Shown: positions 3,001 through 6,000 of the stretch, piece after piece
How the letters are laid out: each line of letters starts with the position of its first letter
How positions within the stretch are numbered: the first letter of the stretch is position 1
IMG/VR virus record: IMGVR_UViG_2698536307_000001
Length of the DNA stretch: 6,014 nt
Source: a virus
Taxonomy: Duplodnaviria; Heunggongvirae; Uroviricota; Caudoviricetes
Direction: 5' to 3' (one strand)
Made by a program: the position numbers

Positions 3001-6000
3001 TGATTTTACTTTTTCGGGGATCAGTCCCTTAAATCCGGCAGCAATGGGCGACCATGTAACATCCTCATAGTTATTTACCGCCCATGCCCCCCAGCGCTCA
3101 AGAACCTGCCGGATATCACGCATCAGTATCTTTACCCCATCCGCGATGAACCATAAGGACGCCATTGACGACGGCGTGCTTTTTCGCATCTTTATCATCA
3201 ATGTATTTTCTGACTGTAGCACGATTGCAGTTCAGTATTCTGGCGACTTCTGTCTGATTTCCCCTGGTGCAGATCAGTAATTCAGGTATCGTTTGAATTT
3301 TAGCATTCATCAAATGTTCTCCAGTTCGGTGATTTTTATCCCCACTCTACCGCCAGGCACTTTCACGCCGCGAATTACGCGAATGTCATCGAATTGCTCG
3401 TCGTCTTCCGCAAATCCGGCGTGGATAAGAGAGTCGAGTAAACCTTTCAGGATGTTATCGAGGTCGCGACGGCGGGAATCTGGTGGTTCAGCAATAATTG
3501 TGATGCGAAGTCGTGATTTAGTGAAAATGTCTAATCTGAGTTGCCGGATGATTTGCTGTACGTCTTTTCGGTATTTCTGGCCTTTATCGCTGATGTAGTA
3601 CTGGCTTCCCCGTCTTCGCCAGTAGGTATTCACCGTCGGCGGCCAGGGAAGCACAAACTCATATTCATTCATGACTTAATCTTCCCCTCCTTCAGCAATA
3701 TCGCCTGCGTCCTGATCACGCCTTCCAGGTGGTAAAGTCTGGCGTCGTTGTTGTCGAGAATTCGGGTGCGTCGGTCGATCTCCGCGTGGCAGTCACTACA
3801 AGCCCATGCACCGATCAGGTCGTCAGGCTTCATTCCCGTTCCGCAAATTCCAGCCATCCGGTAATGTGCCAGAACTGTCGTTTCAGGATTGCCATTGCAT
3901 ACGCCGTAAATCCGTACCTGGCATTCTCTGCCGCGCGCTTCTTTGCGTAGGTTTGCCATCATCTTATTCCTCGTACATTGAACTATCCGGAGTGACTATT
4001 AAATCTTGCACGACGTCTGAGCCACCGGACATCCCACAGGTGAGACGTATAATTGAAGGTTTTTACATCAGATTCGTTGGGGATTGGCCTGGGTTTATTT
4101 CGGGAGCGTTTCGTTGGAAGGTAATTGCAGTTTTCACAGACTATATCGGTAATGCTTCGTCGCTGTCGTCTCATTCATACCTCCTGTCGGTAAATCTGAC
4201 ACCCTGCTCCACAGCCCAGGAAGTTGTGTACTCAATCAGGCTTGCCATACGCTTCACGCTCATCTGCGCACTGCTTTCGCGGATATTGACGTATTCACCT
4301 TCAAGACCTGGCAAAACATCAGCTTCCTGTTTTGTAGCCACGGCATGACCGCTGATTAACAAAACTTTCCACTGTTCTGGTTTTAGCCATCTGCCGCACC
4401 ACTGAACCTGTCGGGAGATATCAGCGACCATCGCGTGAAATTTGGCATTTTGATCGAGATTCCGCTTGTAATCGGTGATGCGGATCGTAACGGGTTTGTC
4501 TTTATCGAGAGTTGTTGCAAGGATGGCGTTAATGGCGAATTGTTGCTGCTGCTTACTTCGGAGGAAGATAGTCTGGTTCATTATTCCCTCTCACTGGATT
4601 TTCCCAACAAAAAAGGAGCCGAAGCTCCTTTAGTTTCAGAATTCAAATTGTCTTGCCCGCAGGCTTTTCAGCATTGGCATGGCCCGCTGGATAATGGAAC
4701 TTGACATGTCGAGACGTGTTACCTCCCTTAGTAGCGGGTCTCTGTTCTTCGTCACCATGTAGATGGTCTCAAACGCAATGTCATACAGCTTGTTCGTGTA
4801 TGAGGAGTTCAGCTCTTTCATAATGGGATACAGGTGTTTGCTGAGGTCCTGGGCTTTTTCCATCCAGAGCTGCATGTAGCAAAGGAGGATGATTTCTTCT
4901 GCTGTGAATTGAGGCTGAATATGAGGTTGTGGCGGTATAGCGCTTTTTTCAGCTTCACGGTCCAGAATATCCAATACCCAGCGACGAAACTCTTTTGCTA
5001 TTGGAGTTCGAGCAAACATCGCTATTAGGTGAGCGCCGCGTAATGAGAAGATGCGAGTCTCTTGCTTGTCCCCTTTAGGATCGGTCAATTTGACCGAGGC
5101 TGTCATACCGTTTGTGAATTCATCTGCGTGACGGGCATAGATGCGTGTTACCGAGCTTTGATCTGCATATTGTAACGCGCTGGCTATTTGGGGGGCAGAC
5201 AACCACAGTAGACCATCTCGTTGAACGGTCTGGAATTGAACATTGTGGAATACAAGTTGAGTGCTCATAGTTTTATGTCCTTTCGATTCGTTCAGATCAC
5301 CCCGTGTTCAGCAGGGCGGTCGGGTACTTGAACACCGTCGAAAGTTCGGCCCGCATCCTTAGCCTTGCGGCTGTTTTTCGGTATACGCGCTACCCGACCA
5401 TATCTGAAAAATGGACATAAAAAATCCGCATGACTGACGGGCGCGGTTTCCGCTTTCGAAGGTGTGTTCAGCACCATGGAGCGGAATATATCCCCGTTAA
5501 TGCGGATTTGTCAAATCTGGCCTTAAAACTCGAATTGTCTTGCCCGCAGGCTTTTCAGCATTGGCATGGCCCGCTGGATAACGGAACTTGACATGTCGAG
5601 ACGTGTTACCTCCCTCAGTAGCGCGTCTCTGTTCTTCGTCACCATGTAGATGGTCTCAAACGCAATGTCATACAGCTTGTTCGTGTATGAGGAGTTCAGC
5701 TCTTTCATAATGGGATACAGGTGTTTGCTGATGTCCTGGGCTTTTTCCATCCAGAGCTGCATGTAGCAAAGGAGGATGATTTCTTCGGCTGTGAATTGTG
5801 GCTGAATCTGCGGCTGCTGTTCGGTTGGTGCTGTTTTTCCCTGGCTGAAATAGCAGTCTTCCAGTTTTTCGAATACATCCCACGCCCGATCGGTTTCGAG
5901 CATTTTTGCGTGACGGGCTGCGCCGCGTTCTGTCCAGAGGATGAGGGAGCGGGCATTTTTACCAACTAACCCGATTGTTTCGGGTCTGTTCTTAAACTCG

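What the first reader, a model, noticed from the sequence alone, without database searches (positions are those of the whole stretch)
4636..5807. Two adjacent antirepressor genes share a near-identical C-terminal module on ~285-bp direct repeats 887 bp apart
The Bro-N-type gene (4636-5268) and the Rha-like gene (5523 to window edge) have unrelated N-terminal domains but C-terminal ~95 aa differing at only 3 residues, with about 98% nucleotide identity. That points to recent module exchange or gene conversion. The direct repeats are also substrates for homologous recombination that would delete the Bro-N gene and its promoter, giving a switchable or chimeric antirepressor locus. The function of the shared module is unknown; it may be the target-interaction or oligomerisation domain.
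Basis: seen in the sequence. Interest (0 to 1): 0.6.

Follow-up and report, generated by a model that had tools for sequence, protein, structure and literature searches.

The report
Tandem antirepressor-like genes sharing one module
Two neighbouring prophage genes for antirepressor-like proteins really do carry almost the same tail module, because recombination recently swapped that module between genes; this is an ordinary example of known domain shuffling in this protein group, although the spacer between the genes holds an interesting small regulatory RNA.

Summary
The repeat is real: 4640-4929 and 5527-5816 match at 279/290 nt (245/250 in the core), 887 bp apart. An identical arrangement occurs in a complete E. 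coli genome and about 20 other assemblies.

Both genes lie on the minus strand. The upstream one is ORF6N-type, not Rha. The shared module is Pfam P22_AR_C, the C-terminal domain of phage P22 antirepressor. These are 'Bro-network' proteins, already known for domain swapping.

In most related arrays the Bro-N gene carries a diverged 'beta' module (about 66% nt identity). Here beta is replaced by 'alpha', while the 599 nt upstream are identical in both kinds of allele. That marks a sharp, recent recombination joint. The closest alpha donor is an ORF6N gene of other prophages (99.2%), not the present neighbour (98.0%).

Arrays of one, two and three cassettes exist, including the exact single-crossover deletion product. 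I found no evidence for a programmed switch.

Unexpectedly, the spacer is a self-contained regulatory leader:
- a conserved promoter;
- an sRNA-Xcc1 element whose loop pairs with the Bro gene's ribosome-binding site and with an upstream copy of the same target.

This pairing covaries across 12 specificities, as in the phage P1 c4 system.

Verdict: observation confirmed, interpretation partly supported, modest novelty.

The parts
5523..6014 (-). 3' part (163 codons) of the upstream gene, ORF6N + P22_AR_C; cut by the contig end; 221 aa when complete
   Evidence: ORF and translation. Pfam P22_AR_C 31.5 bits (cut-off 22.4) in the window fragment. Full-length copy in AST198 (L001 5827-6492): ORF6N 73.1 bits (cut-off 27.8) + P22_AR_C. 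65% identical to Phi24B Ant.
5527..5816 (-). Repeat copy A: alpha-type P22_AR_C module of the ORF6N gene
5485..5514 (-). Sigma-70-like promoter TTGACA-18-TATATT, starting 9 nt after the ORF6N stop codon
   Evidence: 11/12 match. Both hexamers are invariant in 10 diverged loci while the spacer varies in L008.
5453..5459 (-). Upstream target copy UCGAAAG (b1-like), complementary to the Xcc1 loop
   Evidence: an identical target copy lies 60-92 nt upstream of the RNA in all 12 specificity classes
5419..5444 (-). Short hairpin CCGC...GCGG followed by U6, a terminator-like end of an isrK-like short leader RNA
   Evidence: Sequence. The stem covaries to CCAAC/GTTGG in L002/L005b (alignment). Too short for the scan. 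Role inferred.
5310..5399 (-). sRNA-Xcc1 family element (closing stem plus two hairpins), same strand as the genes
   Evidence: Rfam RF02221, 67.5 bits, gathering score 53, E 4e-11
5338..5344 (-). Loop of hairpin 2, CUUUCGA
5278..5286 (-). Downstream target UCGAAAG (5286-5280) overlapping the Shine-Dalgarno AAGGA (5282-5278) of the Bro gene
   Evidence: the loop-target complement is kept through 12 different sequences
4636..5268 (-). Bro-N + P22_AR_C gene (210 aa), a chimera of Bro-N type 1 with an alpha module
   Evidence: Pfam Bro-N 44.2 bits (cut-off 25.6) and P22_AR_C 30.1 bits (22.4). AlphaFold model has two domains with a disordered linker at 109-122.
4640..4929 (-). Repeat copy B: alpha-type P22_AR_C module on the Bro gene. 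Its last ~10 nt and the terminator are of the type found after beta modules and after single-gene alleles.
4612..4631 (-). Intrinsic terminator after the Bro gene, before ninB (4581-4171)
   Evidence: 8-bp stem, 4-nt loop and T-run. The same sequence follows the last cassette of nin-region arrays.

Best explanation
The window holds the end of a cassette array in the nin region of a lambdoid E. coli prophage. Each cassette encodes one 'Bro-network' antirepressor-like protein. Such a protein has a variable N-terminal DNA-binding-type domain (ORF6N, then Bro-N), a disordered linker, and a four-helix P22_AR_C module homologous to the C-terminus of phage P22 antirepressor.

The 290-bp direct repeat exists because of a module replacement. 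The Bro-N gene in most arrays carries a diverged 'beta' P22_AR_C allele. Here it has acquired an 'alpha' allele by homologous recombination, with joints in the linker-coding DNA and in the conserved last ~30 nt of the module. The event is recent. The donor was an alpha module of an ORF6N-type gene, more likely from another prophage or an earlier array than from the present neighbour.

The conserved modules and the conserved leader between genes act as portable homology. Unequal or inter-phage crossovers then add, delete and re-assort cassettes, giving arrays of one to three genes and nearly all N x C domain combinations. This is evolutionary turnover, not a programmed switch.

Each downstream cassette is autonomous. 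It has its own promoter and a leader with a short target-bearing RNA ending in a weak terminator. It also has an sRNA-Xcc1 element whose hairpin-2 loop pairs with the ribosome-binding site of the gene. The last cassette carries the terminator.

By analogy with P1/P7 c4-icd-ant and Gifsy-1 isrK-orf45-anrP, the RNA keeps the protein untranslated in the lysogen until the balance of leader RNAs changes. The proteins then most likely help relieve CI repression during induction, as shown for the related Phi24B Ant.

Shown: the repeat, the domain identities, the mosaic joints, the natural deletion/insertion alleles, and the loop-target covariation. Inferred: translational repression, antirepressor activity, and P22_AR_C as the protein-interaction (effector) domain.
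For: Repeat and ORFs.

Domains: Pfam Bro-N, ORF6N and P22_AR_C, all above gathering scores. BLASTP to P22 Ant residues 177-274, E 8e-10. PHROGs 'anti-repressor Ant' for both proteins.

Structure: two domains, linker pLDDT <50 at residues 111-117, four helices at 123-208.

Alpha and beta alleles: in L002, L004, L006, L007 and L009-L011 the Bro gene's module is only 66-67% identical to the window's, while upstream genes carry alpha at 88-96%.

Sharp joint: 0-1 differences in 599 nt (leader plus Bro-N part) among nine Bro1 alleles, irrespective of alpha or beta.

Donor: ORF6N genes of O104:H4-type prophages match at 99.2% against 98.0% for the neighbour.

Spread: exact protein on 21 contigs, 99-100% variants on 34, 24 and 195 contigs. 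The same protein sits next to xis-int in E110019. The three-gene array ORF6N::alpha, Bro1::alpha, Bro2::beta occurs in L013/L014.

Combinatorics: 7 of 8 N x C combinations occur among 102 loci.

Deletion or ancestor allele with the crossover between -60 and -10: L036/L041/L042.

Leader:
- promoter 11/12 match, conserved;
- Rfam sRNA-Xcc1 above threshold;
- 90 such elements in 102 loci, all co-oriented, and 89 of 151 Bro-network genes preceded by one within 80 nt;
- 12 loop specificities with cognate complement 5-8 nt (10 of 12 at 7 nt or more) against a non-cognate mean of 4.4 (1 of 132 reaches 7), plus a matching copy of the target (identical to the downstream one in most classes) upstream in every case;
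- different specificities within one array;
- first genes of nin-type arrays are preceded by isrK + C4 with both loops matching flanking targets.

Experimental relatives:
- Phi24B ant is ORF6N + P22_AR_C in the nin region. Its knock-out lowers late-promoter activity after induction to about 27-56% of wild type (PMC3064807).
- The Gifsy-1 isrK leader keeps anrP untranslated. IsrK supplied in trans activates translation about 140-fold, and AnrP induces the prophage (PMC4825925).
- Domain swapping in the Bro network, and immunity RNAs next to such genes, are described in PMC10111431.
Against: No experiment on these two proteins exists, and 'antirepressor' is an annotation by homology.

The Phi24B knock-out phenotype is partial. 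That gene is only 65% identical to the upstream gene.

The Rfam C4 and isrK models do not hit the in-window leader at E <= 1. The likeness to c4 is therefore architectural, not demonstrated homology.

Whether alpha or beta is ancestral on Bro-N type 1 cannot be decided. The three-gene array could be the parent of the window's arrangement or its derivative.

Three of the five core differences between the two copies look like the beta state. A patchy conversion of a beta gene is therefore not excluded (read by eye).
Confidence: 0.72

Rival explanations
1. Intra-locus gene conversion. The neighbouring ORF6N gene's module was copied onto the Bro gene within this very array, and the two copies are being homogenised (concerted evolution).
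For: The neighbour is among the closest alpha copies (245/250 in the core). The conserved ends of alpha and beta modules could anchor a conversion tract. Three of the five core differences resemble the beta state, as a patchy tract would.
Against: ORF6N genes in O104:H4-type prophages are closer (248/250, one difference being private to the window) than the neighbour. The identical Bro protein occurs in E110019 next to an upstream gene whose module is only 88% identical. Most arrays keep alpha and beta side by side without homogenisation.
Confidence: 0.18
2. A programmed or high-frequency switch. Recombination between the repeats deletes or restores the Bro cassette within a lysogen population, giving phase-variable antirepressor content.
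For: A 250-290-bp repeat at 96-98% identity is a good RecA or phage-recombinase substrate, and the array sits beside ninB and rusA. The exact deletion-type allele exists in nature.
Against: The two-gene state is stably inherited in at least 21 assemblies and a complete genome, and the three-gene state in about 195 contigs. No site-specific recombinase site or invertase-like feature lies at the joints (sequence). A deletion cannot be reversed without a donor. No read-level data were available.
Confidence: 0.05
3. Assembly artefact. The second copy was created by mis-assembly of multi-copy prophage sequence in a short-read draft.
For: The window is an entire 6-kb draft contig that ends inside the ORF6N gene. 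Many proteins with this module in public data are partial, at contig ends.
Against: The same arrangement occurs at 99.9% identity in the complete AST198 chromosome, and the same Bro gene in the complete E110019 chromosome. Independent assemblies agree. The two copies differ at 11 positions, so they are distinguishable.
Confidence: 0.02
4. Selection for identity. The two proteins must share the same C-terminal module, for example to form hetero-oligomers or to bind the same repressor, so the identical modules are functionally required.
For: P22_AR_C is a compact helical domain of the kind that mediates protein-protein contacts. Alpha modules are highly conserved on three unrelated N-domains.
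Against: In the less biased IMG/VR sample, 11 of 13 tandem arrays pair alpha with beta, and only 2 pair alpha with alpha. Identity is therefore not required.
Confidence: 0.08

Closest known systems
Bro-network proteins of phages and satellites (KilA-N/Bro-N/ORF6N/AntA/pRha N-domains combined with ANT, P22_AR_C and other C-domains; Iyer, Koonin & Aravind 2002, cited from my own knowledge and via PMC10111431)
   Same: Same domain families, and the same phenomenon of unrelated N-terminal domains joined to a shared C-terminal module. Mageeney et al. (PMC10111431) list ORF6N, Bro-N, AntA and P22_AR_C as members and note immunity RNAs beside such genes.
   Different: This report shows the exchange at nucleotide resolution: joints in the linker and in the 3' end, alpha and beta alleles, 1-3-cassette arrays, and a natural deletion-type allele. 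The cited papers, as far as I could read them, do not describe this.
Phi24B (vB_EcoP_24B) Ant, followed by Roi, in the nin region
   Same: Phi24B Ant is ORF6N + P22_AR_C, 65% identical to the window's upstream gene. It lies in the same genomic neighbourhood and is followed by a second Bro-network gene. It is the only close relative with a phenotype: the knock-out lowers late-promoter activity after induction.
   Different: The second gene there is Roi (pRha-type) without the shared module, so that locus has no direct repeat.
Phage P22 antirepressor Ant (immI: mnt-arc-sar-ant)
   Same: The shared module is homologous to P22 Ant residues ~177-274 (28% identity, E 8e-10), which is the Pfam P22_AR_C domain. 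P22 ant is also held in check by a small antisense RNA, sar (annotation).
   Different: The N-terminal domain differs (P22_AR_N). The regulators differ (Mnt and Arc proteins, and sar transcribed from the opposite strand). P22 has a single gene, and it lies in a different genomic location.
Phage P1/P7 immI: c4 antisense RNA - icd - ant (own knowledge: Citron & Schuster 1990; Biere et al. 1992; Hartmann et al. 1995)
   Same: A constitutive promoter and a structured RNA on the same strand as the antirepressor gene. Loops are complementary to targets both upstream (a1 b1) and downstream (a2 b2), and the downstream target covers a ribosome-binding site. Specificity classes differ by loop-target pairs. 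The first gene of the window-type array in AST198 is preceded by bona fide Rfam C4 + isrK + c4-a1b1 hits.
   Different: The in-window element is Rfam sRNA-Xcc1, not C4 (no C4 hit at E <= 1). Only one variable loop was found. The target abuts the antirepressor-like gene's own Shine-Dalgarno, and there is no icd-like upstream ORF.
Gifsy-1 isrK-orf45-anrP (PMC4825925)
   Same: A short terminated leader RNA carrying target sequences, followed by a translationally silent mRNA for an antirepressor-like protein. Translation is controlled by RNA-RNA pairing, and the protein induces the prophage.
   Different: The in-window leader has no orf45-like coupling ORF. I did not test homology of AnrP to the window's proteins.

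Membership tests
Pfam P22_AR_C (PF10548) | HMM score above the curated gathering score | tested here: met
   30.1 bits (Bro gene), 31.5 bits (ORF6N gene fragment) and 33.1 bits (module alone) against a cut-off of 22.4
Pfam P22_AR_C (PF10548) | Direct similarity to the C-terminal domain of P22 Ant itself | tested here: met
   BLASTP, window Bro residues 86-189 against P22 Ant 177-274: 28% identity, E 8e-10. The beta allele gives E 2e-10.
Pfam Bro-N (PF02498) | HMM score above the gathering score in the N-terminal half of the 4636-5268 gene | tested here: met
   44.2 bits against 25.6, residues 12-101. The model shows a beta-sheet plus helices, with Ski/Dachshund-like Foldseek matches at prob ~0.9 but non-significant E-values.
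Pfam ORF6N (PF10543) | HMM score above the gathering score in the N-terminal half of the upstream gene | tested here: met
   Full-length copy in AST198: 73.1 bits against 27.8. The truncated in-window fragment alone scores 17, below the cut-off, because the contig ends inside the domain.
Rha family (Pfam Phage_pRha) | HMM match to Phage_pRha in the upstream gene | tested here: not met
   No Phage_pRha hit at E <= 1 for the fragment or the full-length protein
Antirepressor (functional class, P22 Ant type) | The protein binds and inactivates a CI/C2-type prophage repressor | not testable with these tools
   Only homology and the partial phenotype of Phi24B ant bear on it
P1/P7 c4-type antisense immunity | Structured RNA matching the Rfam C4 model (RF01695) | tested here: not met
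   In the window, only sRNA-Xcc1 (RF02221) is found at 5310-5399, and no C4 hit at E <= 1. C4 + isrK + c4-a1b1 do occur upstream of the first gene in the near-identical AST198 locus, outside the window.
P1/P7 c4-type antisense immunity | RNA loop complementary to a target covering the ribosome-binding site downstream, maintained by covariation | tested here: met
   12 distinct loop-target pairs, cognate 5-8 nt against a non-cognate mean of 4.4. In most classes the target ends 9-11 nt before the AUG.
P1/P7 c4-type antisense immunity | A second copy of the target upstream of the RNA in the same transcript | tested here: met
   A matching copy of the target (identical in most classes; a longer form in the CCAAAAG and GCAAGUAG classes) lies 60-92 nt upstream of the RNA's 5' end in all 27 distinct instances
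P1/P7 c4-type antisense immunity | Processing of the RNA by RNase P, and translational repression with premature termination | not testable with these tools
   Only a suggestive RCCA/RCCC-like tail after the closing stem, seen by eye
Rfam sRNA-Xcc1 (RF02221) | Covariance-model score above the gathering score | tested here: met
   67.5 bits against 53, full-length model 1-87

The most novel reading that the evidence does not exclude
The array may be a set of independently 'locked' antirepressor cassettes. Each Bro-network gene would have a private one-loop antisense RNA of the sRNA-Xcc1 family, acting as a single-loop functional analogue of P1 c4 with flanking decoy and target copies. At least 12 interchangeable specificities were seen. 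Recombination at the conserved P22_AR_C module and leader would then re-assort lock, DNA-binding head and effector tail. If so, sRNA-Xcc1, so far described as a trans-acting Xanthomonas integron sRNA, would be re-read as a widespread cis-linked translational lock on antirepressor-like and toxin genes. Such a system could govern cross-talk between co-resident prophages.
Probability: 0.45. Interest if true: 0.6.

Novelty: new member of a known kind. Interest (0 to 1): 0.4.

Why it matters
The repeat itself is an ordinary, if unusually clean, example of how Bro-network antirepressor-like genes exchange domains. It shows at base-pair resolution that the linker and the conserved module ends are the recombination joints, and that whole cassettes are gained and lost through the shared module. 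This explains why these genes break short-read assemblies and confuse protein clustering in Stx and other lambdoid prophages.

The more useful lead is the spacer. It links the Rfam family sRNA-Xcc1 to c4/isrK-type control of antirepressor translation, with many specificities. That is directly testable, and it bears on how polylysogenic E. coli, including Shiga-toxin strains, coordinate or insulate prophage induction.

Tried and rejected
- PDB sequence search with the Bro protein found nothing meaningful (best E 0.85, coiled-coil noise).
- Foldseek against the PDB gave no hit with E <= 0.001.
- A homologue search with the module alone returned mostly partial proteins at contig ends. The exhaustive representative search gave only 12 clusters. 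I therefore used the full-length protein for the alignment and the model.
- I considered an assembly artefact and rejected it against complete genomes.
- I considered a Rha assignment and rejected it.
- I considered that the neighbour copy was the donor. A closer donor type exists.
- I tried a MAFFT alignment of 12 leaders for a formal pair count. The short variable loops and targets were not in register, so I relied on the alignment-free cognate versus non-cognate complement test.
- The 61-aa ORF at 5292-5477 overlaps the RNA element and is not annotated in any relative. I treated it as non-coding.
- PADLOC gave only weak hits of the N-domains to candidate family PDC-S05. I did not pursue these.
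- Iyer et al. 2002 and Chen et al. 2011 are not held in the library. Statements about them rest on my own knowledge and on papers that cite them.
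Full report
**1. Observation**

The window contains one long direct repeat, 4640-4929 against 5527-5816 (290 nt, spacing 887).
- Exact counts are 279/290 overall, 268/274 for 4646-4919, and 245/250 for the core 4654-4903.
- Every other repeat reported in the window is 28 nt or shorter at about 71-73% identity, which is background.
- A base-by-base comparison shows identity collapsing abruptly at both ends.
- The two ORFs have the stated coordinates, but both are on the minus strand.
- Their last 95 residues differ at three positions.

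The window is the complete 6014-bp contig CYBN01000127.1 of a draft E. coli assembly, and it ends inside the upstream gene. The same arrangement is present at 99.9% identity in the finished chromosome of strain AST198. The exact Bro protein is recorded on 21 contigs. The repeat is therefore not an assembly artefact.

**2. What the genes are**

Pfam places the 4636-5268 gene as Bro-N + P22_AR_C. The shared module alone is P22_AR_C, above the gathering score.

The upstream gene, read in full from AST198, is ORF6N + P22_AR_C, with no Rha match. The module aligns directly to residues 177-274 of authentic P22 antirepressor (E 8e-10). PHROGs files both proteins under 'anti-repressor Ant'.

These are members of the 'Bro network' of domain-swapping phage proteins. 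Mageeney et al. list ORF6N, Bro-N, AntA and P22_AR_C together, and note immunity RNAs beside such genes (PMC10111431).

The surroundings are a lambdoid nin region: ninB, ninE, a DUF1364 gene, rusA, ninH, Q, then a SASA esterase.

An AlphaFold model (mean pLDDT 85.6) shows three parts:
- a Bro-N domain at residues 1-108;
- a disordered linker at 109-122;
- a four-helix module at 123-208.

The 5' edge of the repeat falls in the linker. No solved structure is informative about the module.

**3. The repeat arises from a module replacement**

In eleven related loci from E. coli genomes and phages, the pair 'X-P22_AR_C followed by Bro-N-P22_AR_C' recurs in three settings: the nin region, next to xis-int, and at prophage ends beside ynfF.

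Two module alleles exist. 'Alpha' sits on the upstream genes (ORF6N or AntA/AntB). 'Beta' is the usual module of the Bro gene. The window's Bro module is 66-67% identical to beta and 88-96% identical to other alpha copies.

Nine Bro-N type-1 alleles are identical over the 254-nt leader plus the first 345 nt of the gene (0-1 differences in 599 nt), whether they end in alpha or in beta. This sharp mosaic joint shows a recent exchange of the module.

The closest alpha sequences outside Bro genes are ORF6N genes of O104:H4-type prophages (248/250). The present neighbour is at 245/250. Conversion from the neighbour is therefore not demonstrated.

The chimera is an established allele. It is on 21 contigs as the exact protein, and on 34, 24 and 195 contigs as 99-100% variants. 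It occurs in two complete genomes, one of them in a different prophage context.

**4. The modules are recombination substrates over evolutionary time**

- In the 195-contig variant the array has three genes: ORF6N::alpha, Bro1::alpha, Bro2::beta, then ninB.
- The window's Bro gene has the body of that Bro1 gene, but the last ~10 nt and the terminator found after beta modules.
- Among 102 loci, seven of the eight possible N x C combinations occur, and arrays of one, two and three cassettes are seen.
- L036, L041 and L042 carry the window-type ORF6N gene (115/115 residues; 2 differences in 766 nt). Their module matches the window's upstream copy at every diagnostic site up to -60, and its downstream copy from -10 onward, terminator included. 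This is exactly what a single crossover between the two repeats would leave. Equally, it is what existed before the Bro cassette was inserted.
- In the less biased IMG/VR sample, 11 of 13 tandem arrays pair alpha with beta, and only 2 pair alpha with alpha. Identical modules are therefore neither required nor typical.
- Nothing points to a programmed switch.

**5. The spacer is a regulatory leader**

Nine bases after the ORF6N stop codon lies TTGACA-18-TATATT (11/12 match). Both hexamers are invariant in ten diverged loci.

Rfam finds an sRNA-Xcc1 element at 5399-5310 on the gene strand (67.5 bits against 53).

Across the related loci, every Bro-network gene is preceded by a co-oriented structured RNA about 40 nt upstream of its start. 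The first gene of most nin-type arrays has isrK + C4. Other genes have sRNA-Xcc1.

In 102 loci I found 90 Xcc1 elements, all co-oriented, and 89 of 151 Bro-network genes have one within 80 nt upstream.

The loop of hairpin 2 (CUUUCGA, 5344-5338) is complementary to two sequences:
- UCGAAAG at 5286-5280, which overlaps the Shine-Dalgarno AAGGA;
- an identical UCGAAAG at 5459-5453, upstream of the RNA.

Twelve different loop sequences occur. In each, the downstream and upstream targets have changed in step with the loop. Cognate complements are 5-8 nt, with 10 of 12 at 7 nt or more. Non-cognate complements average 4.4 nt, and only 1 of 132 reaches 7.

Cassettes within one array carry different specificities. 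Between the upstream target and the RNA is a short hairpin with a U6 tail, and its stem covaries.

The isrK + C4 leaders of the first genes show the same logic with two loops.

This is the architecture of P1/P7 immI, c4-icd-ant (my own knowledge). It is also that of Gifsy-1 isrK-orf45-anrP. There the long transcript is translationally silent, the short RNA supplied in trans activates translation about 140-fold, and the protein induces the prophage (PMC4825925).

The C4 and isrK covariance models do not hit the in-window leader. The resemblance is therefore functional and architectural, not shown homology.

Two papers have noted sRNA-Xcc1 upstream of other genes without a mechanism: upstream of an ORF6N gene in APSE phages (PMC7313666), and upstream of symE in Xanthomonas integron cassettes (bioRxiv 10.1101/2025.06.18.660453).

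**6. How it most likely works**

Shown:
- two autonomous cassettes;
- a recently exchanged module;
- recombination joints in the linker and the module's 3' end;
- a leader RNA whose loop matches the ribosome-binding site.

Inferred:
- in the lysogen, the leader RNA blocks translation of the Bro-N protein;
- when the block is relieved, the proteins help to lift CI repression.

The closest tested relative is Phi24B Ant. It is ORF6N + P22_AR_C, 65% identical to the upstream gene, in the same region, and followed by roi. Its knock-out lowers late-promoter activity after induction to about 27-56% of wild type (PMC3064807).

I take P22_AR_C to be the protein-interaction (effector) part and the N-domains to be nucleic-acid-binding heads. 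No result here tests that.

**7. Comparison, novelty and verdict**

Domain shuffling among these families is established, and both genes are routinely annotated. Antirepressor families are reported in 126 of 279 Stx phage genomes (PMC8136144). The finding is therefore a new, well-resolved member of a known kind.

The part that could repay experiments is the leader. It may be a one-loop, c4-like antisense lock of the sRNA-Xcc1 family, with many specificities, placed in front of antirepressor-like genes.

Noticed in passing
window 5310-5399 (-), with 5338-5344, 5280-5286 and 5453-5459: An sRNA-Xcc1 (RF02221) element lies between the two repeats. Its hairpin-2 loop is complementary to the Bro gene's Shine-Dalgarno region and to an identical upstream copy. 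The pairing covaries through 12 specificities in 102 loci. The architecture resembles P1 c4 and Gifsy-1 isrK, but Rfam does not place Xcc1 in the C4 clan.
   Followed up: yes
L001 5575-5773 (AST198, just beyond window position 6014): The first gene of the array (ORF6N) is preceded by Rfam isrK + C4 + c4-a1b1 hits. Both C4 loops match sequences in isrK and next to the ORF6N ribosome-binding site. This leader lies outside the window because the contig ends inside the gene.
   Followed up: partly
window 5419-5444 (-): A short hairpin CCGC...GCGG followed by U6 lies between the upstream target copy and the Xcc1 element. Its stem covaries to CCAAC/GTTGG in other leaders. It may end a short isrK-like RNA or act as an attenuator.
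   Followed up: partly
window 2145-2350 (-): A full-length Rfam STnc100 match (165 bits) lies in the gap between antiterminator Q (2689-3222) and the SASA esterase gene (13-1923). No tRNA genes and no stx genes are in this gap, although the backbone resembles Stx phages.
   Followed up: no
window 6014 (contig end): Several independent draft assemblies break within about 25 bp of the same place inside the ORF6N N-terminal domain. Most database proteins with this module are partial, at contig ends. These multi-copy cassettes systematically fragment short-read assemblies.
   Followed up: partly
L016 1-3363 and L017 1-2825: In some relatives the antirepressor array sits between ninB-dam-ninE and a second ninB-ninE. 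This suggests the array travels with a duplicated piece of the nin region.
   Followed up: no
L002 2258-2569; L005 1643-1912; L009 1619-1885: Truncated ORF6N or AntA/AntB genes that have lost their P22_AR_C module lie at the head of some arrays. Each is still followed by a leader RNA and a complete cassette. They look like scars of earlier unequal recombination.
   Followed up: partly
L001 3537-3861 and 4269-5383: Just upstream of the array in AST198 lie hok/sok, a Doc/Fic-type toxin gene, and a RelE/HTH pair. A cluster of toxin-antitoxin modules therefore adjoins the antirepressor cassettes.
   Followed up: no
window 2689-3222 (-): The longest ORF for the Q antiterminator (177 aa, GTG start) is longer than the 144-aa RefSeq call in AST198. 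The true start is probably the downstream ATG.
   Followed up: no
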